Virus record (IMG/VR): IMGVR_UViG_3300045988_094226
Location: 1 to 41,457 of that record
From: a virus
Direction: 5' to 3' (one strand)
DNA length: 41,457 nt
Every line of letters starts with the position of its first letter. Positions within the stretch are counted from its first letter, which is position 1. The notes below the pieces were generated by a model. That model ran no database searches. It worked only from the letters and a program-made list of their open reading frames with translations, and was not told the DNA's origin. The position numbers and the translations under genes were made by a program. This document shows, in pieces, positions 1 to 41,457 of the stretch.

Positions 1-55
1 AAAATTCTATGTATGATTTCATGTTCTTCTCCTCGGCTTGTCTCTTGCCTGTTTC
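1..55. repeat. Terminal direct repeat. Bases 1-55 are identical to 41403-41457, consistent with circular closure or assembly overlap of a roughly 41.4-kb element
   Basis: Exact 55-nt identity between the two window ends, read directly. The helicase start codon (41422-41424) lies inside the repeat and equals 20-22, overlapping the Rep stop (19-21) as ATGA. Confidence 0.9.
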
Positions 56-855
56 ACAGTACATTCTTTTTTCTTCTTCGGTACTCTCGACTGTGTAATC
101 GGCCATACGTTCCTTTCGTTTACTTTGTACATTCTGTAAAACTGGTAAGGGAATCCGTCTGCTGTATATCCGCTTTCTACTTTGACTATCTGGTAGCCTT
201 TTTTCGGTGTCGGATTGTCTTTCCATTTCCGGGCGTAGATGGTTACCTTTTTCACGTTTGGCTGCTTTAGATTTTTAGACGGTACCCATCGGATTTTCTG
301 TACGGCATTTTCGTTTCGGATTTCTTCATCTGTTTCTTTCACAAAATATTCCGCAAGTCTCATGCAGTCTTCTGGGTTTCCATCAAAAAACCTGAATGAT
401 CTGTAATTGAATTTTGCCCACGGCCAGCATTCATTGATTTCTGATCTTGATATTCCTCCTTCGTTAATCAGAACGTGATGATGTACTCGATGGCGGACAT
501 GTTCTGTGACGTAGATATATTTCAGTTCCGCATTTTTCTTTTTATATTTTTTGCGGAGGTCTCTGATAAATTTTCTTATTCTGTTTTTTGCTTCTTCTGC
601 TGTCGGCTCCGGATTTGCATATGTCAGGTCGATACGCAGGTCATCTCTTTTAAAATTGGTTGCTATAAGCCGGTAGAGTTTTGTTTTCGCCCGGCGGGAG
701 TTTCTTTTCTTGAGTCCCTTATCTGTTTTTTGAATATTGGGACCTCTGACTCTGTTTCCCCCTAATCTGTATGTGTGATATTTTTTCACTTCATAAATTC
801 CGGGTGCTTGAAATATTTCTTTTCGGTACGGCACTTTTTTAAATTCCTGTTCCAA
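19..855 (-). CDS. Rolling-circle replication initiator, HUH endonuclease of the pC194/pUB110 (Rep_1-like) family
   Basis: Motif I-like IDLTY, motif II HVHHHVLI (HUH) and motif III LAEYFVKE with catalytic Tyr. TTG start at 855 has a weak RBS; GTG at about 834 has AGGAA upstream. Stop overlaps the helicase ATG across the circular junction. Confidence 0.55.
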   Translation of the reverse strand: MEQEFKKVPYRKEIFQAPGIYEVKKYHTYRLGGNRVRGPNIQKTDKGLKKRNSRRAKTKLYRLIATNFKRDDLRIDLTYANPEPTAEEAKNRIRKFIRDLRKKYKKKNAELKYIYVTEHVRHRVHHHVLINEGGISRSEINECWPWAKFNYRSFRFFDGNPEDCMRLAEYFVKETDEEIRNENAVQKIRWVPSKNLKQPNVKKVTIYARKWKDNPTPKKGYQIVKVESGYTADGFPYQFYRMYKVNERNVWPITQSRVPKKKKECTVKQARDKPRRRT

Positions 856-877
856 GAATTAACTACTATATCAAGTC

Positions 878-905
878 CTCAAAAGGGGCTGAAACCCCCT
901 TTTTT
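878..905. terminator. GC hairpin GGGG-N6-CCCCC with T6 on the plus strand (T4 on the minus strand). It sits beside a minus-strand CTTGATA motif (875-869), which is the pC194-family dso nick consensus
   Basis: Sequence AAAAGGGGCTGAAACCCCCTTTTTT. On the minus strand the motif is followed 5 nt later by CTTGATA. Confidence 0.35.
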
Positions 906-906
906 C

Positions 907-935
907 TTGACATTTTGTGCCGTTTCACTTATAAT
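907..935 (+). promoter_or_regulatory. Consensus sigma-70-type promoter TTGACA-17-TATAAT pointing rightwards, antisense to the rep leader
   Basis: TTGACA at 907-912, exact 17-nt spacer, TATAAT at 930-935. Confidence 0.55.
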
Positions 936-941
936 TTATGT

Positions 942-1000
942 AGTGGTTTGGTGCTACGGCACTTCCGCTCAGAGTTCTTTTCTGGGCGGTTTTATTTTTC
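942..1000 (+). ncRNA. Candidate countertranscript (ctRNA-like antisense RNA), about 58 nt, ending in an intrinsic terminator. It is antisense to the 3' end of the Zn-ribbon gene and the rep leader region
   Basis: Promoter 907-935 upstream. Hairpin 965-989 (8 bp, one G-U pair) followed by TTTATTTTT. There is no plus-strand ORF; pT181/pUB110-type RCR plasmids regulate rep with ctRNAs. Confidence 0.4.
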
Positions 1001-1225
1001 TTCTTTTTCGTTGTTCTCTTCTTCTGGTTCTTCTGTCTTTTCCCGATATATGCATCTCTGCAAAAAGTCCAGGTAATGTTCGCATTTTCTGCAGTGTTCC
1101 TGGCATATATTAGCTTTTTCTTTTCTGCAGCATACGGTCTGGAATACTTTTGCTTTGCATACACGGCATTTTCTGTTCCGGTAAACTTCTACTATTTTCC
1201 CGCCCGCTAATTTCATGACTGCCAC
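992..1225 (-). CDS. Small Cys-rich zinc-ribbon protein (CxxC...CC...CxxHCxxC)
   Basis: ORF track, 77 aa with multiple paired Cys/His. Overlaps the upstream ORF by 13 nt. Confidence 0.45.
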   Translation of the reverse strand: MAVMKLAGGKIVEVYRNRKCRVCKAKVFQTVCCRKEKANICQEHCRKCEHYLDFLQRCIYREKTEEPEEENNEKEEK

Positions 1226-1554
1226 TCTATACTCACCCTTTCCTTTTTATCCCCACTTTGGACGCTCCAATACCCGCGGGGATTTTTTATTATCTTGAAT
1301 TTTCGTCCACCGGATGATGTATAAGTGTTGTTTTCATCCATAAAAAATACCGGCATTTCTTTCTGTGGTATCAGCCGTTCTTTATCCAGTGTTTCTTCTA
1401 TCAGCCAGCCGATAGGTTTCTTCCGGACGTTATCCCACAAAAGATATATGTCAGTACTTCGCCCACTTGGGCTTTTTCGGAATACATCCCGCTCTTTTCT
1501 TTTTGATTCTTCGTTCTTCTTCCGTTTTATAAAGTTCCTGCAGTTCCATTTCAT
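1213..1554 (-). CDS. Hypothetical protein. The 5' boundary is uncertain: it overlaps the HNH-like gene 3' end in another frame, so this is either genuine overlapping genes or one frameshifted gene
   Basis: C-terminal 90 aa look protein-like (DIYLLWDNVRKKPIGWLIEE...). ATG at 1554 is preceded by GGAG with an 8-nt spacer. Confidence 0.3.
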   Translation of the reverse strand: MKWNCRNFIKRKKNEESKRKERDVFRKSPSGRSTDIYLLWDNVRKKPIGWLIEETLDKERLIPQKEMPVFFMDENNTYTSSGGRKFKIIKNPRGYWSVQSGDKKERVSIEWQS

Positions 1555-2369: not shown

Positions 2370-2608
2370 GATTGCGCTCCTCTCCCTCTTCGAACAAGAA
2401 TGCACTTTTTCATTGTAGAAATGACTGTTTCCCTGACTTCCTGATCACTGCTCATCATCATCCCTATCATTCCTGCCGGGCATTTGGCACGATATAAACT
2501 ATCAACCGCCACTGCAATCGCCAGTGAAATAAACTTATCGTCATGTCCTTTTTCTGAAATGCTGAATTGTTCTAATTCATCATCTGCTCGTATCGTCAGT
2601 TCGTACAT
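2366..2608 (-). CDS. Hypothetical protein
   Basis: ORF track, 80 aa, translationally coupled to its neighbours. Confidence 0.3.
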   Translation of the reverse strand: MYELTIRADDELEQFSISEKGHDDKFISLAIAVAVDSLYRAKCPAGMIGMMMSSDQEVRETVISTMKKCILVRRGRGAQS

Positions 2609-2864: not shown

Positions 2865-2943
2865 GATAACTTCTCCACGACCGCAATCATCATTGTCACG
2901 AAAACCGCCAGCCATAAATAATTTATTATCTTGTCTACCATTT

Positions 2944-3177
2944 TTACGCCCTCATCTTTCTAACTTCCGCCCGGAAATCATATCCGCTTTGTTTCATCTT
3001 CCGTTTCTGCGCATTCTCTTCCATCTTCTGCCGGATAGCCGATTCCGCATCTTCAGGGTCAAACAGATACGCTTTCCCTGACGGGATGAATGGTATCTCC
3101 CCTGTTCGGCACAGCATTCGTATCGTTGTGACCGGATATCCCGTTGCCTTGCAGAAATCCTTTGTGTTTGTAAGCAC
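2944..3177 (-). CDS. Excisionase-family HTH DNA-binding protein (Xis candidate or early regulator)
   Basis: FCKATGYPVTTIRMLCRTGEIPFIPSGKAYLF matches the excisionase/MerR-type HTH_17 pattern. Divergent from the lysogeny module. Confidence 0.45.
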   Translation of the reverse strand: MLTNTKDFCKATGYPVTTIRMLCRTGEIPFIPSGKAYLFDPEDAESAIRQKMEENAQKRKMKQSGYDFRAEVRKMRA

Positions 3178-3246
3178 GTCTTCCCTCTCTTTCTTTTTTA
3201 TTCACTTTCCTTTTGATATACTGTGTTCTGAAAGGATGTGATTTTT

Positions 3247-3684
3247 ATGCTCGAATTCAGCGATTTGACGCAATTTGACCTTAAAATCCTTGAATATGTA
3301 AAAAATAACGGATCGATTTCCGAAGAAAAAATTATTAGTCATTTCGATTCGGACCCCGACGTTACAAGCCTCCGCATTCAGGAACTTTCAAAAGTGTCTT
3401 ATAACATGAACTATCCCAATTACAAGGGACTCCGTATTCCTATTTCTGATTCCTCTTATCTTGATAAGGCGTATTCCCGTTACCATGATGAAGACGGCAT
3501 TCCTCAACTTGAATACACCGGAGTTGTTTCCATAAGCAGACGTGGTAAAAAGGCTATTCAGGACTGGAAACAAAATCATTCTTACAAAGCATGGAATAAT
3601 ATTGTTCGGTCAGATCTTGCGCTTGCTGTAGCAGTTTTATCTTTGATTTTGTCTTTTTATGCCGCTTTTTTTAAAACAGATTGA
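3247..3684 (+). CDS. Membrane-anchored winged-helix protein (N-terminal MarR-like HTH, C-terminal TM helix)
   Basis: DLKILEYVKNNGSISEEKIISHF HTH. C-terminal LALAVAVLSLILSFYAAFF TM segment. RBS AAGGA upstream of ATG 3247. Confidence 0.4.
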   Translation: MLEFSDLTQFDLKILEYVKNNGSISEEKIISHFDSDPDVTSLRIQELSKVSYNMNYPNYKGLRIPISDSSYLDKAYSRYHDEDGIPQLEYTGVVSISRRGKKAIQDWKQNHSYKAWNNIVRSDLALAVAVLSLILSFYAAFFKTD

Positions 3685-3757
3685 AAATAGCAAACACTAA
3701 CGAAATCACCGAAATAATAAAGGCTATATTCGCCAACTGTTTATCTGATACTTTCAT
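3671..3757 (-). CDS. 28-aa hydrophobic peptide MKVSDKQLANIAFIISVISLVFAIFNLF (type I toxin-like or holin-like small membrane peptide)
   Basis: RBS AGAGAGGTGAGGGA 6 nt upstream of ATG. Single TM helix. Own leftward promoter, with -10 TATAAG back-to-back with the plus-strand TATAAT. Confidence 0.35.
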   Translation of the reverse strand: MKVSDKQLANIAFIISVISLVFAIFNLF

Positions 3758-3776
3758 TCCCTCACCTCTCTTTCTT

Positions 3777-3805
3777 TTGCTTAACTCGTCACCTTCACTT
3801 ATAAT
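3777..3805 (+). promoter_or_regulatory. Promoter TTGCTT-17-TATAAT, copy 1 of a duplicated roughly 65-bp promoter/RBS cassette
   Basis: 3777-3782 and 3800-3805. The cassette (about 3767-3832) is repeated at about 4160-4228 with roughly 85% identity. Confidence 0.5.
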
Positions 3806-3829
3806 CGGTTTGAAAGGAGGTGAACCAAT

Positions 3830-4051
3830 ATGCAGTGCAAAATAAATACTCCGTTTGCAAAATCTCTGTCGGATATAAAAACAGAGATTTTGGAACAGAC
3901 AACGGATAAAATCCATACAAGACACACATATTCCAATGGCTTAGTATTGGAATATCTTGCTACCGCTGATGGCGTTTCCGTTTCTTCCAATTGGGGTTGG
4001 AAGAAAGAACCGGATGGCAGCCTTACGCCTGTTCCTGTGGTGAAATCGTAA
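3830..4051 (+). CDS. Small hypothetical protein (73 aa) driven by cassette copy 1
   Basis: ORF track. GGAGGTGA RBS 7 nt upstream. Terminator-like hairpin at 4096-4140. Confidence 0.4.
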   Translation: MQCKINTPFAKSLSDIKTEILEQTTDKIHTRHTYSNGLVLEYLATADGVSVSSNWGWKKEPDGSLTPVPVVKS

Positions 4052-4171
4052 TTTTATCTGCTCGGATGATGACTGCATCCGTAGATACGGTTACGGAAGA
4101 AGAGCCTTTTTCGATCCGATATGGGCTCTTTTTCAATTTCTTTTTTTCCATTTTTATTTCCTCTCTTTCTT

Positions 4172-4200
4172 TTGCTTAACTCATCACGCTCCTCTATAAT
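4172..4200 (+). promoter_or_regulatory. Promoter TTGCTT-17-TATAAT, copy 2 of the duplicated cassette
   Basis: 4172-4177 and 4195-4200. Identical architecture to copy 1. Confidence 0.5.
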
Positions 4201-4224
4201 TGGTTTAGAGAGGAGGTGAACCAT

Positions 4225-4434
4225 ATGACCGCTTACATAAAAGTAAAAGGGTATCAGGTTGTCAGTGTTATTAATATTGAAAAAATCGAGTATACTGATC
4301 CTATTTCCGAGTCATGTTCAGAAATTACCGACTTCAAGAAACTTCGGATTTATCCTGGATATCAATATGTTTTTGTCGGAAACGCTATCCTTCATGTCTT
4401 AGGCGAAAATATTGAATGTGTTTGGTTTGAGTAA
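4225..4434 (+). CDS. Small hypothetical protein (70 aa) driven by cassette copy 2
   Basis: ORF track trimmed to MTAYIKVKG. RBS GAGAGGAGGTGA. Confidence 0.4.
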   Translation: MTAYIKVKGYQVVSVINIEKIEYTDPISESCSEITDFKKLRIYPGYQYVFVGNAILHVLGENIECVWFE

Positions 4435-4609
4435 TTGTCATTTTTTTAGAATAAGAGTGCAGTTGCAGCTGTACTCTTTTCTTATTTCATCAATTATCTT
4501 CACTATTTCCTTGATTTCTGTTATTCGTGACAACTTGATCTCTACCTGTACTTCCAAATTTCCCATTTTCCCTCACCTCTCTTCCTTTAAAAATATATTT
4601 TGTGTCTTT

Positions 4610-4822
4610 TTAGGATACTCTTTCGCTAAAAAAAATAGCGTCTATCTCTTCCGGCTTTAATTTATACCTATCTTTTATGAAAAGTATTTCTGCCTGTCGA
4701 AAATCTGCCCCACCGTTGATTTTTAGATTTAATCGAGATAGGCTTATCCCTAACGCATTCGCTAAATCTTTTTGACTATCTCCATATTTCATCATTTCTG
4801 CCCTCATCAATGGTTTATTCAT
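4610..4822 (-). CDS. Cro-like XRE-family HTH regulator
   Basis: SQKDLANALGISLSRLNLKINGG HTH. Divergent from the repressor. RBS GAGGTGA. Confidence 0.6.
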   Translation of the reverse strand: MNKPLMRAEMMKYGDSQKDLANALGISLSRLNLKINGGADFRQAEILFIKDRYKLKPEEIDAIFFSERVS

Positions 4823-4947: not shown

Positions 4948-5406
4948 ATGGTTACGCATATGGAATTTAAAGATATCCTTTATACTTTAAGAAAAAAGAA
5001 TAAACTAACGCAGCAGGAAGTTGCAGAATATGTAGGGTTGCAAAAAGCAGCTATATACAAATATGAACACGGCTTGCTTGTTAATCCCAAACGATCATTG
5101 ATTTCAAAATTGGCTAAGTTATTTCAAGTTACCCCATCGTATATGATGGGATTAACCGATGATGATAAGTCTGCTCATGTGTCTCTTGGTCCATCCCTTA
5201 CCAAAAAGGACGAAAAAGACATCCAAAAAAGACTATCCGATATCTTAAATGATATGGACAGTCAGGATGCTATCGCCATGTATAACGGCGGAGAACCGAT
5301 GGATCCGGAAACACGGGAATACATGAAAGCATCTCTTGAAAATGCTCTCCGCTTTGCAAAATTAAAAGCAAAAGAAAAATTTACACCAAAAAAACACCGC
5401 AAATAA
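4948..5406 (+). CDS. XRE-family repressor (cI/ImmR-like, no S24 peptidase domain)
   Basis: KLTQQEVAEYVGLQKAAIYKYEHG HTH. Followed by an ImmA-type protease, as in ImmR/ImmA systems. Confidence 0.7.
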   Translation: MVTHMEFKDILYTLRKKNKLTQQEVAEYVGLQKAAIYKYEHGLLVNPKRSLISKLAKLFQVTPSYMMGLTDDDKSAHVSLGPSLTKKDEKDIQKRLSDILNDMDSQDAIAMYNGGEPMDPETREYMKASLENALRFAKLKAKEKFTPKKHRK

Positions 5407-5417
5407 AGGAATGTATT

Positions 5418-5861
5418 ATGGACATAAAGAAATTCGCGAATAAACTTGCCGCTGCTCACGATACAAGAAACCCTTTTCGTATAGCATCTGAAAACCATAT
5501 CCATATCTTATATGAAGAATTAGGTGAAAATTTAGGGTATTTCAGTCAGCTGTTTCGTATTAAAACGATACGGATAAATGGTCATGCCGATCCTTTTCTC
5601 TATCCGTTTATCTGTGCTCACGAACTCGGTCATGCGCTGCTTCATCCGCATGCCGGCACTCATGCTTTCAATAGAAATTCTTTTATTGCTAATTGCAAAA
5701 TTGAAAAAGAAGCGAATCAATTTGCCGTAGAATTGCTATTCCCTGATGAGTTGATAGCTGGTCATCCGGAAATAGACATTTATAATCTGGCGCGGACATT
5801 CGGTATTCCATATCAACTGGTTTATCTTAAGTCCATTTCTTACAGAGCACGTCATTTATAA
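5418..5861 (+). CDS. ImmA/IrrE-family zinc metallopeptidase (anti-repressor protease)
   Basis: HELGHALLH HEXXH motif. Gene order repressor then protease. Confidence 0.7.
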   Translation: MDIKKFANKLAAAHDTRNPFRIASENHIHILYEELGENLGYFSQLFRIKTIRINGHADPFLYPFICAHELGHALLHPHAGTHAFNRNSFIANCKIEKEANQFAVELLFPDELIAGHPEIDIYNLARTFGIPYQLVYLKSISYRARHL

Positions 5862-5875
5862 AAAGGGGATTAATT

Positions 5876-6532
5876 ATGAAAAGGTTCTTGGCTGGTGTGT
5901 TTGTAATATCTGTTATTCTTTTATCCGGATGTGGGGGTGCAGGTAACAGCAGTAATAAAAACAGTAAATCTGTCACTTATTCCACAGAACAGAAATTTGC
6001 AGCGAACACCGAAATCTTGAATATTCTTCCTACAATGAGAAAAACCCATGATGATGTTGACAAAATGGACATATATACCAGTTTGGCAACTGAATCATAC
6101 CCTCCCCAAGATGGTCTATATTGGAAATTAATTGTAAATAAAGGCTATGTCTTCGAATATTTTACAATCGTTAATTTTACAAGTGGTATTGAATGGGTAT
6201 TTTGGGATGATGTCGTTTTTTCCACAAATGAAGGGAATTGGACATATCACATCGGGTCTTTTGCCGGACAGTCAGGAAATGGGAAACGCACTCAAATAGT
6301 TATGGGCGGTAAGTATGAATTTTTAAATGTCTCTATTGATAAAATTGCTCCAGGCTTGGAAAAATTGATAAAAGGAACTAACCCGATTATTCGTTTAAGA
6401 GGTAAGGAATTTGTTTATGACATTAAACTCACGGATAATGATATGAATATAATAAATACTGCTATGTATACCTATGAACAATTAAAAATTACAGGAAACA
6501 AGATTTCTTTTGATAATACTGAAAAGAATTAA
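5876..6532 (+). CDS. Lipoprotein (candidate superinfection-exclusion protein)
   Basis: Signal peptide with lipobox LLSGC. Sits in the lysogeny module between ImmA and int. Confidence 0.55.
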   Translation: MKRFLAGVFVISVILLSGCGGAGNSSNKNSKSVTYSTEQKFAANTEILNILPTMRKTHDDVDKMDIYTSLATESYPPQDGLYWKLIVNKGYVFEYFTIVNFTSGIEWVFWDDVVFSTNEGNWTYHIGSFAGQSGNGKRTQIVMGGKYEFLNVSIDKIAPGLEKLIKGTNPIIRLRGKEFVYDIKLTDNDMNIINTAMYTYEQLKITGNKISFDNTEKN

Positions 6533-6552
6533 TTGGTAATCGGAGGGATACT

Positions 6553-7257
6553 ATGGACTTTAAAGATCCTAAAAACAAAGTATACTTACAAAAAGCCATT
6601 TCATCTCTGTCAAAAGACTATTCCAACATGTTAATTTCAATGACAAATCAAGATGATTCTAATTACAAGAGGGCAGCTCTTCTTTACTACTGGCTACGCG
6701 ACTATAGGAACTATGTCAAAAATGAACCAAAATTCAATTCTGTTTATACCCCGCCTTTCCGACGTGGGAACATAGCAAATATTAATTTCGGCTTTAATTT
6801 GGGCAGCGAACTCGGCGGACTGCACTATGCAATAGTTATTTCTGACAGTAGACCTACCAATCCCATGCTGATAGTCGCTCCTATGACTTCATTTAAACCA
6901 AGCCACCAATTAAATGATTGTGAAATATTTATAGACAACCAACTATTTTTACAATTGAAAGGGAAACAAGATGCCCTTGTACAAACATTAAAACATCAGC
7001 GTGCTACTTCCATCGATAGTGAATCGGATGATATCAATTCCAAATTAGATCAACTCCAAAAAATAAAAAAACAAATTCAAAAACTGAAAAATGGAAGTAT
7101 AATCAATATCAGTCAAATTTGTGCAATAAGTAAAATGCGGGTGATTGATCCGCAAAGTCCCCTTGATGTATTTTATAATATTTCAGTTTCATCTGACGTA
7201 TTAGATAAAATAGACAATAAAATAAAACAGTTTTTTATGAATCCTAACAAACCTTGA
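6553..7257 (+). CDS. Extended PemK/MazF-fold protein (234 aa) with a 65-aa N-terminal extension and a roughly 55-aa coiled-coil insertion. No adjacent antitoxin
   Basis: FRRGNIANINFGFNLGSELGGLHYAIVISDSRPTNPMLIVAPMTS matches the MazF/PemK core (rGdi..v.f....GsE..g.RPalV.s.......v.v.P.Ts). Confidence 0.5.
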   Translation: MDFKDPKNKVYLQKAISSLSKDYSNMLISMTNQDDSNYKRAALLYYWLRDYRNYVKNEPKFNSVYTPPFRRGNIANINFGFNLGSELGGLHYAIVISDSRPTNPMLIVAPMTSFKPSHQLNDCEIFIDNQLFLQLKGKQDALVQTLKHQRATSIDSESDDINSKLDQLQKIKKQIQKLKNGSIINISQICAISKMRVIDPQSPLDVFYNISVSSDVLDKIDNKIKQFFMNPNKP

Positions 7258-8884: not shown

Positions 8885-9607
8885 TTATATTGCATCTAAT
8901 AAACGACGGTGAGCAACTTCTATATTCCCTGGATCTTTCTCTATCCCAATGTATTTTCTATTACAATGTTTAGCCGCGACTAGTGTCGTTCCGCTCCCGG
9001 CAAATGGGTCTAATATCAGGCTTCCATCTGGTACTATTTTTACTAATTGCTCCATCAGCGGTGTCGGTTTACCTGTTAAATGGAATTTATCTGTTAATTT
9101 TACAGGGAAATGATAACATCCGGGATATGGGCCATCGTGAATAGCTTTGTGACATTTCCCTTTTGTTCCCCATGCTATATATTCACATTGGTGACGAAAA
9201 TATCCCTTGTGTGGTGCCCTCGCGCTATTACCTTTATCCCATGAAATAATTCCCCGCCATATTAACTCGCCGATTTGTAATACATCAGTTGCTGCAGGAA
9301 GCTGCCGCCAGTCCGTAAACATCAAGAAGTATCCGTTCGGTTTTAAAATTCTTTGACATTCGGATATCCATAAATTACACCAATGCATCCAACTTCGCTG
9401 ATCTTTTGTGTCACCCCAGAATGTCGGTCGATGAATTATTTTATTTCCGCTTTGCTCATATTTTTTTACTGGATCTTTTTGTCGCTCCGCCATTGTTGCA
9501 CCGCCGGAACTGTACGGCGGATCTGTAATCACCGCGTCCACTGAACAATCATCAAATGTTTTTAATATTGGTAAGCAATCTCCGCAGTATATTTTGTTGA
9601 TTTCCAT
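8885..9607 (-). CDS. N6-adenine/N4-cytosine DNA methyltransferase (beta class)
   Basis: DPPY catalytic motif (ITDPPYSSGG) before the C-terminal FAGSGTT AdoMet motif. Start trimmed to MEINKIY with RBS GGAGGG. Confidence 0.8.
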   Translation of the reverse strand: MEINKIYCGDCLPILKTFDDCSVDAVITDPPYSSGGATMAERQKDPVKKYEQSGNKIIHRPTFWGDTKDQRSWMHWCNLWISECQRILKPNGYFLMFTDWRQLPAATDVLQIGELIWRGIISWDKGNSARAPHKGYFRHQCEYIAWGTKGKCHKAIHDGPYPGCYHFPVKLTDKFHLTGKPTPLMEQLVKIVPDGSLILDPFAGSGTTLVAAKHCNRKYIGIEKDPGNIEVAHRRLLDAI

Positions 9608-9675
9608 TGTATCCCTCCTTATTTTTATTGTAGAACTAACGTTCTGTTTTCGCAATAAAAACTTAGAGTACATAC

Positions 9676-9712
9676 TCCCGAAATTTAAAAAGAGCGATAT
9701 CATTATCGCTCT
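9676..9712 (-). terminator. Intrinsic terminator after the 256-aa gene
   Basis: 9-bp stem AGAGCGATA/TATCGCTCT followed by T5 on the minus strand. Confidence 0.5.
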
Positions 9713-12952: not shown

Positions 12953-13513
12953 TTATTCATTCGTAAAATCAGAAATAAACTCAAACATACAACTCCCTGT
13001 TTTCAGCATGGAGTTCGGATACATTCCGATTTTACCGTCAGCCGTATACATGCGTGATAAATTGACAAAACCGCCAGAGAGCTCTACATACGCGCCGTAT
13101 CCTTTTTCTTCTTTCGTCAGCACATCGCAGTACATCATCGGATACGTAAGTAATTCATGCTTAACGAATTTAGATTGCAGGTATTTATCAAAGTAAGCCG
13201 TGGCAATGCCGATCGAATTATTGTAAAAATTCAGCCATCTAAACTCTGTTGTATTAGTACCTGTATCAATGCACGAGCATTGCACGGTAAACTTTACACG
13301 CCGATATCCTTCTTCTGTATAACCTACGATTTCGGCAACAACGGTACCGATATGCTGCGTCACAAATCCGATATCCCCTAAAAATTTCTTATTTACGATT
13401 CCGGTTGCTCTGGCTTTCATTCTTTTGTCTACTATTCTGAATTTCGCGCTTCCATCTGTTATTTCCCGCATTTTGTTTACTCCTTTCAATCGTTTGTTAA
13501 ATATACTAAACAC
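12953..13513 (-). CDS. Hypothetical structural protein
   Basis: ORF track, 186 aa. Confidence 0.35.
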   Translation of the reverse strand: MFSIFNKRLKGVNKMREITDGSAKFRIVDKRMKARATGIVNKKFLGDIGFVTQHIGTVVAEIVGYTEEGYRRVKFTVQCSCIDTGTNTTEFRWLNFYNNSIGIATAYFDKYLQSKFVKHELLTYPMMYCDVLTKEEKGYGAYVELSGGFVNLSRMYTADGKIGMYPNSMLKTGSCMFEFISDFTNE

Positions 13514-14574
13514 GCAACAGATTCATGTCCTGGCGATGTAGTATATTCATCCGTATAACTGAGATATAGTTTACCATCTGTATTTATTGTCAATCGTACA
13601 GCTTTACCGTTGCTGTTGTTTATAGGGGCATAAAATTCAAGATTTATAAATGATTCTGGTAGCCCCGATGCAATTTCAATGAGACCTTCCTTTGCACCTT
13701 TCATTCGTACAAAAAGATGCACTATGTTTTTTATTTTTACACATGATAAATTTTCGATATATTGTGGGTCTATAGTCGCATTAATTGTTTCCATCTGTCC
13801 GTAATTATCAAATTTTTCATCAACATATTCTTTTGCAGTTACAGTTTTAACTGTCCACTTCACGCTTCCGTCATTAACTTCTACCCCCCCCGATACGGTT
13901 GACATATTAGGTTCGGTGGCTGCTGTTGTGCCTGCTTGCGTGCATTCAAGATATGCCCATGATGGTAGTTTAGATGAATAGACAATATCGCCGACTTTAT
14001 ATGCTTTCTTGCGTTGCAGTCGATTAACAAACGACGCCGTGGATTCTAAGTCCGTCTGCTCCGCCTTTTTGTCTACTTTTGTTGATACCGCCGCTAAATC
14101 TGTTTGATTCGCTTTCTTTCCAATTTGATTAGAGACCGTTGTTGCGAAATTCGGGTCATTACCAAGCGCGGTTGCCAGTTCATTAAGCGTATCAAGAGTT
14201 TCCGGTGCGGCTCCGACAAGTCCAGATACTGTGTTTTGCACAAACTCTGTATTTGCGATTGTTTTAGAATTGTCACCTGTCGGTGCTGTTGGTGCTGCAC
14301 TCGTACCCGTTACCGCTAATGACTTTGCTTTGACCGTATCAGCATTGACTAAATTAAGGTCACTCGTACCCGTTACCGCTAATGACTTTGCTTTGAAATC
14401 TTTATCATCTGCCGCGCCTTGTTTGTATAGATATTCGATATCGTTCGCGAAATAATCGAATATGCCATCGTTCCCTTTTGTACAGAACGGTGTATTTTTC
14501 CCGAATGCTCCGGGCTGTATGATGTTGTCGTTTTCATCTCTTATTTCCGGATGTTGAAATGTCTGCGGTTTCAT
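13486..14574 (-). CDS. Tail fibre protein with an internal tandem repeat
   Basis: TIANTEFVQNTV phage tail-fibre repeat motif. Duplicated KAKSLAVTGTS segments are encoded by a 36-nt repeat at 14299-14334 and 14353-14388. Confidence 0.6.
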   Translation of the reverse strand: MKPQTFQHPEIRDENDNIIQPGAFGKNTPFCTKGNDGIFDYFANDIEYLYKQGAADDKDFKAKSLAVTGTSDLNLVNADTVKAKSLAVTGTSAAPTAPTGDNSKTIANTEFVQNTVSGLVGAAPETLDTLNELATALGNDPNFATTVSNQIGKKANQTDLAAVSTKVDKKAEQTDLESTASFVNRLQRKKAYKVGDIVYSSKLPSWAYLECTQAGTTAATEPNMSTVSGGVEVNDGSVKWTVKTVTAKEYVDEKFDNYGQMETINATIDPQYIENLSCVKIKNIVHLFVRMKGAKEGLIEIASGLPESFINLEFYAPINNSNGKAVRLTINTDGKLYLSYTDEYTTSPGHESVACLVYLTND

Positions 14575-34890: not shown

Positions 34891-35387
34891 CCGATCCGCA
34901 TCAACCCAATTTTTACTTCAATCGGTATCTTTTCAACATTGAAATGTTCAGAATTCTTTATTATGTCTACTGCCATTTCTTCTGCATCAACAATAATTAC
35001 TCCTGCTTTTGAAAATTTTTCAAGCAACACTTTCTTGATTTTTCCCTCATTTTCTTTGTACATGTTATGCGGAAATGCATAATAGATTGCCTTCGTGTAC
35101 TTTGTCATGTGATTCTCATTCTTTTTAAAATCTGCTAAGAAGTCACTATAACTGGCTTTGATTTCAACCTCCGTTAAATAATCATTTTCATTTAGCCATA
35201 TTAAATCGGCTTCATGTGTAACTCCAGCAAACGGGTATTCATATCCGATAAAGCAACCGTCTTTATCATATTTTTCTATTCTGCATGATGTTCTCGCAAA
35301 ACTAACATTCGGTATTACAATATTTTTATTACCAAAGTGTTCTGCTATTGCATATTGCATTACTGCTTCTTCTTTACTTTTACTCAT
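34863..35387 (-). CDS. PD-(D/E)xK-type nuclease-like protein
   Basis: HEADLIWL...EVEIKAS matches a D...(D/E)xK pattern. Immediately downstream of the C5-MTase. Confidence 0.35.
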   Translation of the reverse strand: MSKSKEEAVMQYAIAEHFGNKNIVIPNVSFARTSCRIEKYDKDGCFIGYEYPFAGVTHEADLIWLNENDYLTEVEIKASYSDFLADFKKNENHMTKYTKAIYYAFPHNMYKENEGKIKKVLLEKFSKAGVIIVDAEEMAVDIIKNSEHFNVEKIPIEVKIGLMRIGCQKWWRRK

Positions 35388-36806
35388 GTCTCTTCCTTAA
35401 TGTCTTCAACCACCTTACTCATTACATAGTCAGCACATGGCTGTGCCATTCCGTTTCCTATTGCTCTGTATCTCGCCGTATCACTCCCGCCCTTTGTCCA
35501 GTTGTCCGGAAGTCCCTGCAGTCTTTCACACTCAAGCGGCGTAAGGCGGCGGACGTAATCTTTAACTATGATCGGATTTTGATAATTGAGACTATATCCT
35601 CCTTGGTTTTTTGCCTGTAATGTCATTGATATCTGCGAAAGTCGACTGTTTCTACAGTCAATCGCATAGGCAACCGCTAATCTTGTTGATGGTTTTAATG
35701 TAGATGTTTTATCCTCATAGATCGGCATGTTGTTTTTTATACTTGCGTCTCTGTTAAATGTGTATATGAGCGGTACTTGATTCCCGCCGGTCCCCATCCT
35801 GTTATTGAGTGTCTGCACTGTTCCGTCATTTCTTTCTCTGATAACGTCTTGCGCATGTGTCATATCGAGAACGCTTATACAGATGCCGCCTTGGTTTCTT
35901 GCTGGATTACTTCCACTTAGATCTAACGTGTTACTTTTGTCTACTTCTTTTATGCCCGCTGTCGGATTGTTGCTTTTCATTCCTTCGCTTTCGTATGATC
36001 CGATTCTGTATGTTTTGATAAGCACGCATCTCTGGTCATGCATGCAGTTCAGCGCTCCTGTTTTTTCTCTCATTCTTATTGAGTTTGTTTGTCCGTTTCC
36101 GATATCATAGACTGATGTTTCAGTACTTGGTACAGCAGTTCGGGTAAGCGTTTCTTTCTTGCTTTCGCTCTTCGCAAAATACCTTGACATGCTTTCGGGC
36201 TCAAATAGTACTTCCGGTCTACCCCCCCCTATTTCTAAAACTTGCAATAAGGAAGATTCTCTCTCGATGCTGGGGGACGCCCCAATATTGAGCGTCGAGG
36301 ACGCGCCATGCGAGGTGACATCTCTTACTTCGTACCATTCCGCTTCTTGCCCATTTTCCAGATCCAGGCATTGGAATATTGGCTTGTGTGATTTCGCTAA
36401 GCACGGCTTGAAAGTCACGCCCTTTGTTGCTTGAAAATGCTCCAAGAACGTTTTCCCAGATAAAGTATTTCGGGTATTCTCCTTTTGTGGCATTGAGCAT
36501 ATCGGAAACAATGTCATTTGCCGTCCTAAATAGTCCGCTTCGTTCACCTTTTAATCCCTCTCTTTTCCCCGCTACCGACAGATCTTGGCACGGGCTCCCC
36601 GCACAGATAATGTCCACTGGTGGTATTTTGTCACCTTTTATTTTTCTGATGTCGCCAAGTTGCATGACGTTCGGAAAGTGTTTTTTTGTGACTTCTATAC
36701 AAAAAGGTTCTATTTCCGATGACCACACGGGAACAGCCCCGTTTCGTTCTGCTGCTATACACCACCCGCCGATTCCGTCAAACAGGCTTCCCACTGTTAT
36801 TTCCAT
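35384..36806 (-). pseudogene. DNA (cytosine-5)-methyltransferase split by a +1/-1 frameshift at a G8 homopolymer (C8 on the plus strand, 36222-36229). Motifs I-VIII lie in the N-terminal ORF (36219-36806) and the TRD plus motifs IX-X lie in the C-terminal frame (35384-36218)
   Basis: FDGIGG (I), GSPCQDLS (IV), ENV (VI), QHRERIFLIA (VIII), then RRLTPLECERLQGLPDNWT (IX/X) in the other frame. Removing one G fuses GG-RPEVLFEPESM in frame. Confidence 0.75.
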
Positions 36807-37861: not shown

Positions 37862-38191
37862 TTACCTCTCTATGTATACTTCCGCATTCCTGCGTCCGAA
37901 CTCTATTGCTTCATCGTATGAGTTTTTAAATATGTCTATGCCTTCCATGCCACCCCGGTCTTCCACGGTGTACCAGTGTCCGTATATCTGTACTTGTGTT
38001 CCGAACGGCAGCCAGTTGCACGCTATGGTTCTGCCTTCAGTCGGTATCGTTCCGGATGCAGTGTGTTCATTCGGACATTCATAAGGCGTATATACTGTGA
38101 GTTCTGTCGTTACCCATTCCGCTTTTATAATTCCCGTTAATCCGCATATAAATACCGCTGAAAATAAAATAATCCATAAGTTTCTAAACAT
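37862..38191 (-). CDS. Secreted 3D-domain protein (MltA/YuiC-like cell-wall enzyme domain)
   Basis: Signal peptide, then TVYTPYE...TASGTIPTEGRTIACNWLPFGTQVQIYG...VEDRGGMEGIDIF with the three conserved Asp of the 3D domain. Confidence 0.6.
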   Translation of the reverse strand: MFRNLWIILFSAVFICGLTGIIKAEWVTTELTVYTPYECPNEHTASGTIPTEGRTIACNWLPFGTQVQIYGHWYTVEDRGGMEGIDIFKNSYDEAIEFGRRNAEVYIER

Positions 38192-38193
38192 TG

Positions 38194-38421
38194 TTATGCT
38201 CCTTTCTTTTTTAACTTTCTGATTTCAACATCTCCAATGAGGATCTTTTCTATTAGCGTTCCGTTGGCTTTTGTCCAGTTCTTCCCAACCAATACCATTA
38301 ATCCTTTTCTTTCATCTATACAGAAGTGTTTTGATACTCTCTTCTCCGCCGGAAATAATATGCCGAATTCTTCCCCAGGCTTGATCCCGAATATGTCTGT
38401 AAATGGTTTGATGTAGTTCAT
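38194..38421 (-). CDS. Hypothetical protein
   Basis: ORF track, 75 aa. Confidence 0.3.
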   Translation of the reverse strand: MNYIKPFTDIFGIKPGEEFGILFPAEKRVSKHFCIDERKGLMVLVGKNWTKANGTLIEKILIGDVEIRKLKKKGA

Positions 38422-38636
38422 GTTTCCTCCTCCATTCTGTCAATTTCATGTATAAGCAGTGCCGCCGCTCTTTTCAGATTTTCTTTTCGTGATTTTACTC
38501 CCCGTATTTTCTTTCCGTGTATAATCGTCGTTCCACCAATCAGGTACGCCGCCATAGCATTAAATAGTTCCGTATTGCTATATGGTTCCGCCGGAAATCC
38601 TCGGGATATTTTCAGTATTTCTTCTGTGTCTATCAT
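38418..38636 (-). CDS. Hypothetical protein
   Basis: ORF track, 72 aa. Confidence 0.3.
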   Translation of the reverse strand: MIDTEEILKISRGFPAEPYSNTELFNAMAAYLIGGTTIIHGKKIRGVKSRKENLKRAAALLIHEIDRMEEET

Positions 38637-38926
38637 TGAATACCTCCTATATCTCTTATGTACCGTTTATATCCGTTTTTTATTCTTTCAAACTCAATGG
38701 CCATCATGATTTCTTGCGGACCATCTTCATATACTTTCTTAATGGCTGCTTTTATGATGACTATCGGGCTGGTAATCAGTGTTATCAGTGACGCCAATAT
38801 TACTACACCGGCTATGGTTATCAGAGCGGCAATCGCTCTTCCCACTCTGCACGGAATCATACCGTATACAAGCTTCTGCCATTTCCTATAACCTTTATAT
38901 GCATTGATATAATCTATTTCGTTCAT
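38633..38926 (-). CDS. Membrane protein, hypothetical
   Basis: TM AIAALITIAGVVILASLITLITSPIVII. ATGA coupling. Confidence 0.35.
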   Translation of the reverse strand: MNEIDYINAYKGYRKWQKLVYGMIPCRVGRAIAALITIAGVVILASLITLITSPIVIIKAAIKKVYEDGPQEIMMAIEFERIKNGYKRYIRDIGGIQ

Positions 38927-41424
38927 TTTCCCTCCATGAAATCAAAGAGTGTCGGTGTTTCCTGGTTATCTTCTTCCCGCTTGAGATACCAGCATCCGTC
39001 ACGGTAGTATTCCGGATTGAGTTCTATTCCTATGCCTTTCCGCCCTGCTTTCATGGCTTCCAGCGGTACTGTCATCAGTCCGCCGAAGGGGTCAAGCACG
39101 GTTTCTCCTTCGTTTGTGTACCGGTTAATCAGTCGGTCTACTATGTCAAACTGGAGAGGACAGAGGTGCATTTGTTTTCTCCTTTGTGATTGTTCTGTGT
39201 TGAGTGTTCTCATACGGTTCACATCGTCCCACACGTCAGGAGACCAGCTCGCTGGATCTATGCACATAAATGTCGCGGGCAGTTTGTTTTTTTCGTCCAT
39301 CGCATTGGCCATCTCTACATGCTTATCAAAGTCATACACGGTTTCTTTACTGTATTTGTTGTACAGTTTTCGTATATCCGATATGGGCATGTCTTTTAGG
39401 TCGTCAACGGACAGCTGCCTGTTTCCGCTGCTTCTCCAGAATGCATGAGCGTCTAATTGCCATTGCCCGCGGGTATATTCTTCTTTACTCTTTGTGACAG
39501 GTGTATCTGCATAGGCTCTTGATGTATCCGTAGGGAGCTTTCTGAACAGCAGGATGTATTCCGGGCAGCCTACTCCCATTTTTGTTCCGTCCTTGCACTG
39601 CTCCGTCCATCCAAGACGGTATGTCTGATTGTTCTCCCGAACCACGTCGGTTATGACGGTTATCATGCCGAAGAATTGGAAGCCGTGTTTCATGTAGTGC
39701 ATGATGGTCAATGCATGGAACGGTTCTATGGTTGGCATGCCTGTTCCCGTTGCGTTCCCGAATAGTACACGGTCTTTCACGTGGCATGCATATACTCTTC
39801 CGGGCTTCAAAATTCTAAGTAAATTCGGCGTTAAATAATCCATCTGCTCAAAAAATTTGTCTGTATTTTCGTTATGCCCGAAATCGTTATAGCTTGCGCA
39901 GTATTCATAGTGATTTCCAAACGGAATTGATGTAAGAAGCATGTCCACTGAGTTATCTTGCATTTTCCCCGTTTCTTCAACACAGTCGCCATGTATCGCG
40001 ATGTAGTTTTTCCCTTTTGTTATGACTTCTTCCACGCCTATACTCCTTTGCATCTCAATGATGGCATCGTTTCTTGACAGTCCATATTTCCTGACTATTT
40101 CTTCCATGCTTTCCGTGAGTTTGTTATATTGCTCCCATTTCTTTTTCAGTACTTCTAGCACCTGCTGTTCTGTTTCCATGTATATGATGTCTATAATGAC
40201 AGGTTTTATTTGTAGGAAGCGGTAACACCGGTGGATGGCTTGGATAAAGTCGTTAAACTCATAGTCAATCCCCATAAATATCTGGCGATGGCAATGTTTT
40301 TGGAAGTTACATCCGCTCCCTGATAGTTCTTTTTTTGTAGCAAGGATACGAAAGTCTCCCTTTGAAAAGCCGATGGTGTTTCTTTCTCTTTCGTCCATAT
40401 CTTGTGAGCCGTAGATAAATTTAGCTTCTGGGATTGCATATTTGATGGCATGACGCTCGCTTTCCAGATCGTGCCATATAATGAAATGTTCATCAGGTGA
40501 TTCGTCGATAATCCGTTTGGTTTCTGCCAGCCTGACATCGATGCTCTCTCTTTTCTCTCTGGCCGCTGCCGAAAGTCCCACGGCAAAGTCTTTTATAAGT
40601 TTGACCTGCCCGTTCTTTTCTTCTTCATTCACGGGTTTTGTGTTTGCCAGCATGTGGTAATTCACTTGCAGTGGCGGAAGGTTATATCCTTCATCGCTGT
40701 ACCCCAGATCAGAGGGCTTTTGAATAAATAATGCCCAGGTAGATAGCCACAGCCAGAATTCTTTTTCTTTATGCGGATAGAGAGTGAGGTTATTTGCTTT
40801 TGTACTGTCCCGCTGAAAGAAGCGTGTTAATGCCTGCCCCGTATCCATAACTTCCAAGTATCCGCCATAGTGAATAAGTTCTTTATATCTATTTGGCGCA
40901 GGTGTAGCCGTGGCAACAAGTTTATATTTCACGCCTTTAAATTTTGGCAGAAATGTCTGATATGTTTTGCTGCCGAAGCTTCTTAAAACGGACGCTTCGT
41001 CTAAGCTGCATGCCGTGAAGTAGTGAGGATCTATATCTCCGTCACGAACTCTTTCATAGTTTGTAATTACTATTCTGTTATCTGCGGCTTTGACTTCTTC
41101 CATATTTCTTACATATGTCGGAGCAGGGATATTGAGCAGATGAACCGCGTCTTCCGCAAATTCCTGCTTGACCCCCAACGGACAGACAATCAACGCTTTA
41201 CCGCCTATTTTCTTAGTGAGTACACGTCACCATTCCAATTGCTGTATACTCTTCCCCAGCCCGAATGCTTCAAACAATGCCCTGCGCCCGCCTTTGAGCG
41301 CCCACAAGACAGCATCTCTTTGATGTGGTTTCAAGACGGAACTTATATCCGCCGGACTGACTTCTATTCCTGATACTGGTGCTTTTATCACTTTATCTTT
41401 CAAAAATTCTATGTATGATTTCAT
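38923..41424 (-). pseudogene. SNF2-family helicase fused to a C-terminal N6/N4 DNA methyltransferase domain, interrupted by one in-frame TGA (about 41227-41229) between helicase motifs I and Ia. Either read through or a pseudogene
   Basis: LKPHQRDAVLWAL...GLGKSIQQLEW-TGA-RVLTKKIGGKALIVCP. DEAS box (SLDEASVL). C-terminal VLDPFGGLMTV AdoMet motif and SIPF catalytic-like motif. TGA is otherwise used as a stop in this genome (ATGA overlaps). Confidence 0.7.
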
Positions 41425-41457
41425 GTTCTTCTCCTCGGCTTGTCTCTTGCCTGTTTC

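What the first reader, a model, noticed from the sequence alone, without database searches (positions are those of the whole stretch)
38923..41424. In-frame TGA inside a conserved SNF2 helicase-methyltransferase gene, in the weakest termination context
The reading frame is continuous from motif I (GLGKS) to motif Ia (LIVCP) except for one TGA. That codon is preceded by a TGG (Trp) codon and followed by C (UGA-C, the leakiest bacterial stop context). Elsewhere TGA is a genuine stop (several ATGA overlaps), so genome-wide recoding is unlikely. The remaining options are programmed readthrough giving a low-level full-length helicase-MTase, a recent TGG to TGA nonsense mutation (pseudogene), or a base-call error.
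Basis: partly seen in the sequence, partly recalled or inferred. Interest (0 to 1): 0.55.

Follow-up and report, generated by a model that had tools for sequence, protein, structure and literature searches.

The report
One-off nonsense mutation in phage helicase-methylase
The in-frame TGA is real in the sequence, but it is a single C-to-A change of a cysteine codon (TGC) seen in this one phage genome and in none of 179 relatives, so it is an ordinary recent nonsense mutation or base error rather than programmed readthrough.

Summary
The gene lies on the minus strand (41424..38923). Codon 66 is TGA (41229..41227), preceded by TGG and followed by C, between motif I (GLGKS) and motif Ia (LIVCP) of an SNF2-ATPase/N6-N4 DNA methyltransferase fusion.

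The ancestral codon was TGC (Cys), not TGG. All 117 listed protein homologues with the motif have Cys there. Of 179 related DNA loci, 155 carry TGC or TGT, 24 carry another sense codon, and none carries TGA.

The two nearest relatives differ at only 6 and 9 of 2502 bases and encode an intact 833-aa protein with TGC. The window's gene has only two private changes, C66* and H329Y, so the stop is very young.

I found no supporting recoding signal:
- no SECIS-like fold, no Rfam hit and no tRNA gene;
- TGA ends 24 of 49 confident genes here, five of them as TGA-C;
- the +4 C is simply the first base of the conserved Arg/His codon 67.

The verdict is a sporadic nonsense allele or a consensus error. 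Weak readthrough is possible but was not selected for.

In passing: a neighbouring C5 methylase gene is frameshifted at a poly-G tract whose length varies among relatives.

The parts
41227..41229 (-). In-frame TGA at codon 66. It replaces TGC (Cys) of all close relatives. The changed base is window 41227: A on the minus strand, T on the plus strand.
41226..41226 (-). The +4 base C, which is the first base of codon 67 (CGT, Arg). This context is inherited rather than evolved.
   Evidence: The +4 base is C in 121 of 166 homologous loci.
41230..41424 (-). Codons 1-65, the only part translated if termination occurs at the TGA. It contains the SNF2 Q-motif region and motif I.
   Evidence: phrog_31240 and phrog_16 match this region.
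41248..41262 (-). SNF2 motif I / Walker A, GLGKS (codons 55-59), upstream of the stop.
   Evidence: The motif is conserved as G-L-G-K-S/T in homologues.
41179..41193 (-). Motif Ia, LIVCP (codons 78-82). The TTG at 41193..41191 is the first in-frame start candidate after the stop and has only a weak GGCGG upstream.
38923..41226 (-). Codons 67-833 plus the natural TGA stop (38925..38923, which forms an ATGA overlap with the next gene). This covers the rest of the SNF2 ATPase and the whole methyltransferase, and is otherwise intact.
39001..39948 (-). N6/N4 DNA methyltransferase domain (residues 493-808).
   Evidence: Pfam PF01555, 63.8 bits. The DPF-GG and catalytic regions align to solved methylases 2zie and 1g60.
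40438..40440 (-). Codon 329, TAT (Tyr). This is the only other change private to the window (relatives have CAT His or CAG Gln), and it sits at a variable position.
1..55 (.). 55-nt terminal direct repeat, identical to 41403..41457. The window is therefore a circular assembly, and the gene's start region and the upstream replication-initiator gene (19..855, minus strand) join across the ends.
41403..41457 (.). Second copy of the 55-nt terminal repeat.

Best explanation
The TGA is a recent, unprogrammed nonsense allele in a temperate siphovirus-type phage genome assembled as a circle from a human-associated metagenome. A single C-to-A transversion at the third position of the Cys66 codon (TGC to TGA) interrupts an otherwise intact 833-codon SNF2-ATPase/DNA-methyltransferase fusion gene, seven codons after the Walker A motif.

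Shown: the ancestral state, the uniqueness of the allele, its youth, and the absence of recoding signals.

Inferred consequences:
- Most ribosomes terminate and release a 65-aa peptide.
- Because UGA-C is a weak signal, a small share may read through, most likely inserting Trp. Position 66 tolerates C/L/V/A/M/I/H/S in the family, so a trace of full-length enzyme is possible.
- Rare re-initiation at TTG78 would give a Walker-A-less protein that keeps the methylase domain.
- The long untranslated stretch could also reduce expression of the translationally coupled downstream early genes.

The allele is therefore a null or strong hypomorph, probably transient, in a gene that relatives always keep intact or replace with another helicase-plus-methylase cassette.
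For: - All 117 listed homologous proteins that carry the motif have Cys at this position (WCR or WCH) and are uninterrupted 828-861-aa proteins.
- Of 179 related loci from IMG/VR, GTDB genomes, ENA and Logan, 128 have TGC, 27 TGT and 24 another sense codon. None has TGA.
- The nearest relatives, L084 and L083, differ at 6 and 9 of 2502 nt, carry TGC and are called as 833 aa.
- Against 16 close relatives the window has only two private bases in this gene, C66* and H329Y. Position 329 is variable in the family.
- The 102 differences from the more distant L001 are almost all synonymous, so the gene was under purifying selection until very recently.
- The TGA-bearing 19-21-mer is absent from IMG/VR. 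Its only four hits in JGI metagenomes are unrelated DNA.
- The would-be split products (65, 756 and 726 aa) are not on record in the 153-billion-gene index.
- Every contig sharing this phage's exact 97-aa neighbour, TerL, SSB or integrase has an intact 832/833-aa gene or a different two-gene cassette.
- 4.8% of all possible single-base changes in this gene create a stop, so a singleton nonsense allele is unremarkable.
- Two other family members carry sporadic internal TAG stops, L070 and L170.
Against: - No reads are available, so a true mutation cannot be told apart from a consensus error.
- The rest of the genome looks complete and functional, with full-length terminase, portal, capsid, tape measure, tail and integrase genes, and it assembled as a circle. 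The phage carrying this allele may therefore be viable, which leaves room for the gene being dispensable or partly rescued by readthrough.
- There is no further decay downstream of the stop, so 'pseudogene' in the sense of long-term loss is not shown.
Confidence: 0.65

Rival explanations
1. Sequencing or assembly artefact: the true phage population carries TGC, and the A at 41227 (minus strand) is a consensus error or a minority variant promoted by the assembler.
For: - The allele is a singleton among 179 loci and is absent from every collection searched.
- The change is C>A (G>T on the plus strand), the signature of oxidative 8-oxoG damage, which is also a known library-preparation artefact (my own knowledge, not tested here).
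- The sequence is a metagenome assembly with a k-mer-sized 55-nt terminal overlap.
Against: - Consensus substitution errors in short-read assemblies are much rarer than real variants.
- The other differences from L083 and L084 in the same 3.3 kb look like ordinary polymorphism, including a recombination-like patch at codons 671-676.
- No other large gene in the window looks damaged apart from a homopolymer-length difference that relatives share.
Confidence: 0.25
2. Functional leaky stop: the UGA-C is kept because low-level readthrough by tRNA-Trp or tRNA-Cys supplies a small, useful amount of full-length helicase-methylase. That would make it programmed or selected readthrough.
For: - UGA followed by C is documented as an inefficient terminator in bacteria, and UGA is misread by tRNA-Trp in E. 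coli and B. subtilis (PMC5289835).
- Position 66 tolerates several hydrophobic residues in distant homologues.
- The frame downstream is fully open and the genome otherwise looks viable.
Against: - The stop is not conserved at all: 0 of 179 loci and 0 of 117 proteins. Relatives 0.24-0.36% away in the gene have TGC.
- The +4 C predates the stop, being C in 121 of 166 homologues.
- Five ordinary gene ends in the same genome are also TGA-C.
- The downstream 83 nt fold no better than shuffles (z = +0.58), and there is no Rfam hit.
Confidence: 0.04
3. Selected loss of function. Knocking out the helicase-methylase is advantageous in the current host, for example to escape a methylation-dependent (Type IV) restriction or a defence that senses the protein. 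Re-initiation at TTG78 might leave a stand-alone methylase.
For: - In this same genome a second methylase gene (C5 type, 36806..35384) is also out of frame, at a G8 tract. Two of three methylase genes are therefore interrupted.
- Relatives swap this locus for a non-orthologous helicase (461 aa) plus methylase (326 aa) cassette, which suggests the locus is under diversifying pressure.
Against: - The G8 'off' state of the C5 methylase is common in relatives whose SNF2-methylase is intact, so the two lesions are not linked.
- A single occurrence cannot show selection.
- The candidate restart codons lack a ribosome-binding site.
Confidence: 0.05
4. Selenocysteine codon: TGA aligned with Cys in homologues is the classic signature of a selenoprotein.
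For: The TGA aligns with Cys in 155 of 179 homologous loci.
Against: - There is no SECIS-like hairpin downstream (fold z = +0.58) and no Rfam hit.
- The downstream sequence is the same as in the TGC-bearing relatives L083 and L084.
- The Cys is not a redox or catalytic residue, since L/V/A/M/I/H/S occupy the position in distant homologues.
- The allele is a singleton.
Confidence: 0.005
5. Genome-wide reassignment of TGA (code 4 or code 25) in the phage or its host.
For: None beyond the single in-frame TGA.
Against: - TGA ends 24 of 49 confident genes, many through ATGA overlaps.
- Treating TGA as sense does not lengthen the real genes.
- The window has no tRNA gene.
Confidence: 0.005

Closest known systems
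Phage 'DNA helicase/methylase' fusion proteins, for example mycobacteriophages Sarma624 gp65, Cerasum and Kingsley; PHROG phrog_16
   Same: The architecture and length match: an N-terminal SNF2-like ATPase and a C-terminal N6/N4 methyltransferase. Identity is 56% over 99% of the length, and phrog_16 matches residues 26-831 at E = 1.5e-130. The gene also sits in the early/replication module.
   Different: In the cultured phages, and in every metagenomic relative examined, the gene is one uninterrupted ORF. The window's copy has a stop at codon 66.
The DNA methylase / SWI2-SNF2 ATPase dyad of phages and conjugative elements, with phage P1 DarB as archetype (Iyer et al. 2017, PMC5512222)
   Same: An adenine/N4-type methylase is coupled to a SWI2/SNF2 ATPase in one polypeptide on a mobile element. 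The proposed role is ATP-driven translocation with methylation of the element's own DNA to evade restriction.
   Different: DarB is a roughly 2,200-aa virion protein (size from my own knowledge, not tested here) in which the helicase follows the methylase. Here the protein is 833 aa, the ATPase comes first, and nothing indicates virion packaging. The function of this family has not been tested.
Leaky UGA termination in bacteria: UGA-C as the weakest tetranucleotide, the prfB UGA-C site, and the Qbeta coat/A1 UGA readthrough
   Same: The stop codon and +4 base are those documented as poorly recognised by RF2 and misread by tRNA-Trp (PMC5289835). The Qbeta example is from my own knowledge.
   Different: Those sites are conserved and functionally required. 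This one is a singleton that arose from a Cys codon, in a context that was already present for coding reasons.
Sporadic nonsense alleles or pseudogenes in metagenome-assembled phage genomes
   Same: The lesion is a single-step change from the ancestral codon, the orthologues in the nearest relatives are intact, and there are no recoding signals. Two other members of this same family carry unrelated internal TAG stops, L070 at aa 449 and L170 at aa 282.
   Different: Nothing distinguishes this case from that class.

Membership tests
Phage SNF2-ATPase/DNA methyltransferase fusion (phrog_16; 'DNA helicase/methylase') | N-terminal SNF2-related ATPase lobe with motif I GxGK[ST] and motif Ia | tested here: met
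   Pfam SNF2-rel_dom covers residues 34-184 at 25.1 bits against a cutoff of 24.9. GLGKS and LIVCP are read directly from the sequence. phrog_16 E = 1.5e-130.
Phage SNF2-ATPase/DNA methyltransferase fusion (phrog_16; 'DNA helicase/methylase') | Second helicase lobe (Helicase_C) | tested here: inconclusive
   Pfam Helicase_C scores 17.3 bits, below the 23.5 cutoff. Weak matches to DDM1 and DrmD cover residues 333-447. The phrog_16 match spans this region.
Phage SNF2-ATPase/DNA methyltransferase fusion (phrog_16; 'DNA helicase/methylase') | C-terminal N6/N4 DNA methyltransferase domain | tested here: met
   PF01555 at 63.8 bits, residues 493-808. Aligns to solved methylases 2zie and 1g60.
Phage SNF2-ATPase/DNA methyltransferase fusion (phrog_16; 'DNA helicase/methylase') | One uninterrupted ORF of about 830 aa | tested here: not met
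   The window has TGA at codon 66. All close relatives have 832-833-aa ORFs. The window copy is therefore a disrupted member by descent.
Programmed stop-codon readthrough site | The stop codon is conserved at the same position in homologues | tested here: not met
   0 of 179 loci and 0 of 117 proteins have a stop there.
Programmed stop-codon readthrough site | A specific stimulatory context or downstream RNA structure | tested here: not met
   Fold of 83 nt starting at Trp codon 65 (TGG), three bases before the stop: -16.3 kcal/mol, z = +0.58 against shuffles. The +4 C is inherited from codon 67. Five normal stops in this genome are TGA-C.
Programmed stop-codon readthrough site | Measured readthrough product | not testable with these tools
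   Needs a reporter assay or proteomics.
Bacterial selenoprotein gene | In-frame TGA aligned with Cys in homologues | tested here: met
   155 of 179 loci have Cys at this position. This is expected anyway for a TGC-to-TGA mutation.
Bacterial selenoprotein gene | SECIS hairpin immediately 3' of the TGA | tested here: not met
   No stable hairpin and no Rfam match.
Bacterial selenoprotein gene | Host Sec machinery (selA, selB, selC, selD) | not testable with these tools
   The host was not identified. The nearest genome hits (73% or less) are Negativicutes such as Megasphaera and Selenomonas.
Stop-codon-reassigned genome (TGA as sense) | Many genes with in-frame TGA, and TGA not used as a terminator | tested here: not met
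   24 of 49 confident genes end in TGA. ORF statistics fit code 11. The window has no tRNA gene.
Sporadic nonsense allele (recent pseudogenisation or error) | Single-step change from the codon found in the closest intact orthologues, restricted to one genome | tested here: met
   TGC to TGA against L083 and L084, which differ at 6-9 of 2502 nt. The allele was not found anywhere else.
Sporadic nonsense allele (recent pseudogenisation or error) | Presence of the allele in the underlying reads | not testable with these tools
   No read data are available.

The most novel reading that the evidence does not exclude
The TGA-C is a real, circulating hypomorphic allele. Its weak context lets a few per cent of ribosomes insert Trp (or Cys) and make full-length enzyme, so the phage 'dims' rather than loses its helicase-methylase. 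Together with the poly-G on/off switch in the neighbouring C5 methylase, this would mean the prophage lineage tunes its own methylation repertoire by cheap, reversible point changes.
Probability: 0.04. Interest if true: 0.45.

Novelty: already known. Interest (0 to 1): 0.08.

Why it matters
The finding has little biological weight. It is an annotation matter: the gene should be labelled as a helicase/methylase with an internal stop, not as two genes, a selenoprotein or a recoding site.

It is a useful cautionary example in two ways. A TGA aligned to a conserved Cys in a 'leaky' UGA-C context still turns out to be a singleton mutation once close relatives are examined. The leaky context itself is just the next codon's first base.

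The more interesting lead is incidental. A C5 methylase in the same widespread human-associated prophage carries a G-tract whose length (6, 7 or 8) varies among independent assemblies and switches the reading frame.

Tried and rejected
- **Whole-genome TGA recoding:** rejected from ORF statistics and stop usage.
- **Suppressor tRNA in the phage:** none found.
- **SECIS or other RNA element:** the fold is no better than shuffles, and Rfam gives nothing at either gathering or permissive thresholds.
- **Frameshifting at UGG-UGA-C:** rejected by inspection. The downstream frame is the zero frame, and the P-site Trp codon offers no re-pairing.
- **The same allele elsewhere:** the exact TGA k-mer is absent from IMG/VR. 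The four hits in JGI metagenomes are unrelated. Exact look-ups of the 65-, 756- and 726-aa fragments find nothing.
- **Natural split near codon 66 in cultured phages:** Flavobacterium phage records showed 'two features' under the N-terminal match. This was only an 8-nt overlap with the upstream gene, and the gene there is one ORF of about 840 aa.
- **Megablast of the gene against cultured phages:** no near-identical relative.
- **Host identification:** the genome collection gave at best 73% identity, to Megasphaera and other Negativicutes. Cluster names carried no organism. Contigs with the exact integrase end at the att site without host flank. The host remains inferred only.
- **Tail-fibre poly-G tract:** the look-up is by exact protein, so it returns only same-length tracts and says nothing about variation.
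Full report
**1. The observation**

The feature lies on the minus strand. Translating 41424..38923 gives 834 codons with a single internal stop at codon 66...FGLGKSIQQLEW*RVLTKKIGGKALIVCPLGV.... The DNA reads TGG TGA CGT.

On the joined protein, Pfam finds an SNF2-related domain (residues 34-184), a weak Helicase_C match and an N6/N4 DNA methyltransferase domain (493-808). PHROGs places it in phrog_16, 'DNA helicase', at E = 1.5e-130 over residues 26-831.

TGA is an ordinary terminator elsewhere in the window:
- It ends 24 of 49 confidently called genes, many through ATGA overlaps.
- Treating TGA as sense does not merge real genes.
- The window has no tRNA gene.

The in-frame candidates after the stop are TTG78 (upstream GGCGG), TTG83 and ATG108, none with a proper Shine-Dalgarno. 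Genuine genes here have GGAGG-like sites.

**2. What the window is**

The first 55 nt equal the last 55 nt. Relatives align across the junction: L083 positions 1-1524 match window 1524..1, and positions 1470-4738 match 41457..38189. The window is therefore a circular assembly of about 41.4 kb.

It encodes a complete temperate siphovirus-type genome:
- integrase, repressor and ImmA-like protease;
- replication initiator, the SNF2-methylase, SSB and dUTPase;
- a C5 methylase and an HNH endonuclease;
- small and large terminase, portal, protease and major head protein;
- tape measure and tail proteins;
- a further stand-alone N6/N4 methylase.

Proteins identical to its TerL and SSB occur in 309 and 120 blocks of the public gene index. 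These come from human gut and oral metagenomes, on contigs up to 0.2-1 Mb, so this is a very common prophage lineage.

The host was not identified. The best hits among species-representative genomes are 73% or less, to Megasphaera, Selenomonas, Schwartzia and other Negativicutes.

**3. What relatives have at codon 66**

A protein search returned over 8000 homologues. The top 33 are 96-99% identical and are uninterrupted proteins of 828-861 aa. Every one of the 117 listed sequences containing the motif has Cys at this position, as WCR or WCH.

At the DNA level I examined 179 related loci from IMG/VR, GTDB genomes, ENA and Logan assemblies:

| Codon at position 66 | Loci |
|---|---|
| TGC (Cys) | 128 |
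| TGT (Cys) | 27 |
| Other sense codon (Leu, Val, Ala, Met, Ile, His, Ser) | 24 |
| TGA | 0 |

Close relatives share the identical context CAATTGGAATGGTGCCGTGTACTCACT.

**4. How old the stop is**

Contigs carrying the window's exact 97-aa downstream neighbour include L084 (Logan ERR15493484) and L083 (Logan SRR28428387). In this gene they differ from the window at only 6 and 9 of 2502 positions. Both have TGC and are called as 833 aa.

Against 16 close relatives, the window has just two private bases in the gene: the nonsense change and H329Y. Position 329 is a variable, polar position across the family.

The 102 differences from the more distant L001 are almost all synonymous. The gene was therefore under purifying selection up to the very recent past, and no decay has accumulated since the stop arose.

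**5. Whether the allele occurs elsewhere**

- The TGA-bearing k-mer is absent from IMG/VR.
- Its four exact hits in JGI metagenomes have no similarity to the window or to the protein.
- The predicted split products (65, 756 and 726 aa) are not in the gene index.
- Every contig found through the window's exact neighbour proteins has an intact 832/833-aa gene. A few instead carry a non-orthologous two-gene cassette at the same position: a 461-aa helicase plus a 326-aa methylase, 26-34% identical to the fusion.
- That cassette splits between the helicase and methylase domains, not near codon 66.
- An apparent split in Flavobacterium phages was only an 8-nt overlap with the upstream gene.

**6. 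Recoding signals**

- The 83 nt starting at Trp codon 65 (three bases before the stop) fold at -16.3 kcal/mol, with z = +0.58 against dinucleotide shuffles.
- Rfam finds nothing in the window at gathering thresholds, and nothing relevant near the site at E up to 5.
- The downstream sequence is the same as in the TGC-bearing relatives, so no element could have co-evolved with the stop.
- The +4 C is the first base of the conserved Arg/His codon 67 and is C in 121 of 166 homologues.
- Five ordinary gene ends in this genome are also TGA-C.

The 'weakest context' is real chemistry. The inefficiency of UGA-C and the misreading of UGA by tRNA-Trp in E. coli and B. subtilis are summarised in PMC5289835. 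Here, though, it is inherited rather than designed.

**7. Most likely mechanism and consequences**

Shown: a single recent substitution created a premature stop in one genome of a lineage that otherwise keeps this gene intact.

Inferred:
- Termination yields a 65-aa fragment that ends just after the Walker A motif.
- A small share of ribosomes may read through UGA-C, probably inserting Trp. Distant homologues accept hydrophobic residues at position 66, so such a product could be active.
- Rare re-initiation at TTG78 would give an ATPase-dead protein with an intact methylase domain.
- The 2.3 kb of untranslated message may depress the translationally coupled downstream early genes.

About 4.8% of all possible single-base changes in this gene make a stop codon, and 18 of those 363 would be TGA-C. 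Two other family members carry unrelated internal TAG stops in genomes where TAG is a normal terminator. A singleton like this one is therefore background noise for the family.

I cannot separate a true mutation from a consensus error without reads. I put roughly 0.65 on a true variant and 0.25 on an artefact or minority variant.

**8. Comparison with known systems**

The gene belongs by descent to the phage 'DNA helicase/methylase' fusions annotated in several hundred cultured phages. Mycobacteriophages such as Sarma624 and Cerasum are 56% identical over 99% of the length.

It is an instance of the methylase/SWI2-SNF2 dyad discussed by Iyer et al. 2017, with P1 DarB as archetype (PMC5512222). 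The domain order and size differ from DarB.

As a recoding candidate, it fails the defining test of conservation. As a selenoprotein candidate, it meets only the Cys-alignment criterion, which any TGC-to-TGA mutation satisfies. It fails the SECIS test.

**9. Seen in passing**

The C5 cytosine methylase next to dUTPase is out of frame in the window, at a G8 tract (plus-strand C8 at 36222..36229):
- Residues 1-195 are 100% identical to the intact 483-aa gene of L187, in one frame. The remainder continues in another frame.
- Among 17 related loci the tract is G7 in 7 (in frame), G8 in 7 (frameshifted, as in the window) and G6 in 3. Of the three G6 loci, L006 is out of frame, and L004 and L005 are in frame because an A replaces one G.

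This looks like slipped-strand phase variation of a prophage methylase, although homopolymer miscalls are not excluded. In this genome, then, two of the three methylase genes are interrupted. The G8 state is common in relatives whose SNF2-methylase is intact, so the two lesions are not linked.

**10. Verdict**

The programmed-readthrough interpretation is not supported. The finding is an ordinary, very recent nonsense allele or base error in a known gene family, and its interest is low.

Noticed in passing
window 36222..36229 (plus-strand C8), within the C5 methylase gene 36806..35384 (minus strand): The C5 cytosine methyltransferase is frameshifted at a poly-G tract. The N-terminal part (195 aa, PF00145 positions 2-160) and the C-terminal part (PF00145 positions 262-322) lie in different frames. 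In 17 related loci the tract is G7 in 7 (in frame, 483 aa), G8 in 7 (out of frame, as here) or G6 in 3. This suggests slipped-strand phase variation of a prophage methylase, or homopolymer miscalls.
   Followed up: partly
window 13884..13891 (plus-strand C8), inside the tail-fibre gene 13486..14574 (minus strand): A second 8-nt G/C homopolymer, the only other one of 7 nt or more in the genome, sits in a tail-fibre gene that is in frame here. It could be another phase-variable site. The exact-protein look-up could not reveal length variants.
   Followed up: partly
window 1..55 and 41403..41457: An identical 55-nt terminal repeat shows that the window is a circular assembly of a complete temperate phage genome of about 41.4 kb. 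The replication-initiator gene (19..855, minus strand) and the SNF2-methylase start are contiguous across the ends.
   Followed up: yes
L085 1629..3991; L180 1..2216; L191 1054..3416: Some otherwise closely related prophages carry a non-orthologous two-gene cassette at exactly this position, between the replication initiator and the 97-aa gene. It is a 461-aa helicase plus a 326-aa N6/N4 methylase, only 26-34% identical to the fusion, which indicates module swapping at this locus.
   Followed up: partly
L070 (internal TAG at aa 449) and L170 (internal TAG at aa 282): Two other members of the helicase-methylase family carry single internal TAG stops. TAG is a normal terminator in both loci, so these are further sporadic nonsense alleles or errors, 2 among 166 loci.
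   Followed up: partly
window 39397..39414 (codons 671-676 of the gene): Four of the six differences from the nearest relative L084 cluster within 18 nt, and three of these alleles are shared with other relatives. This looks like a short recombination patch rather than independent mutations.
   Followed up: no
window 8885..9703 (minus strand): A third DNA methyltransferase gene is intact (272 aa, PF01555 at 116 bits, phrog_67, the same PHROG as the fusion's methylase domain). It lies at the far end of the late region beside the att/integrase junction and may overlap in function with the interrupted gene.
   Followed up: partly
window 4948..7257 (plus strand): The lysogeny module holds an HTH repressor (4948..5406), an ImmA/M78-like metalloprotease (5418..5861) and a 234-aa protein matching MazE-like/PemK-like PHROG and Pfam families (6553..7257), just upstream of the integrase.
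   Followed up: no
residues 1-55 of the gene product (window 41260..41424, minus strand): phrog_31240, an 89-position family of unknown function, matches only the first 55 residues (E = 1.3e-15). Some phage annotations may therefore contain a short stand-alone ORF homologous to this N-terminus. I could not inspect its members.
   Followed up: no
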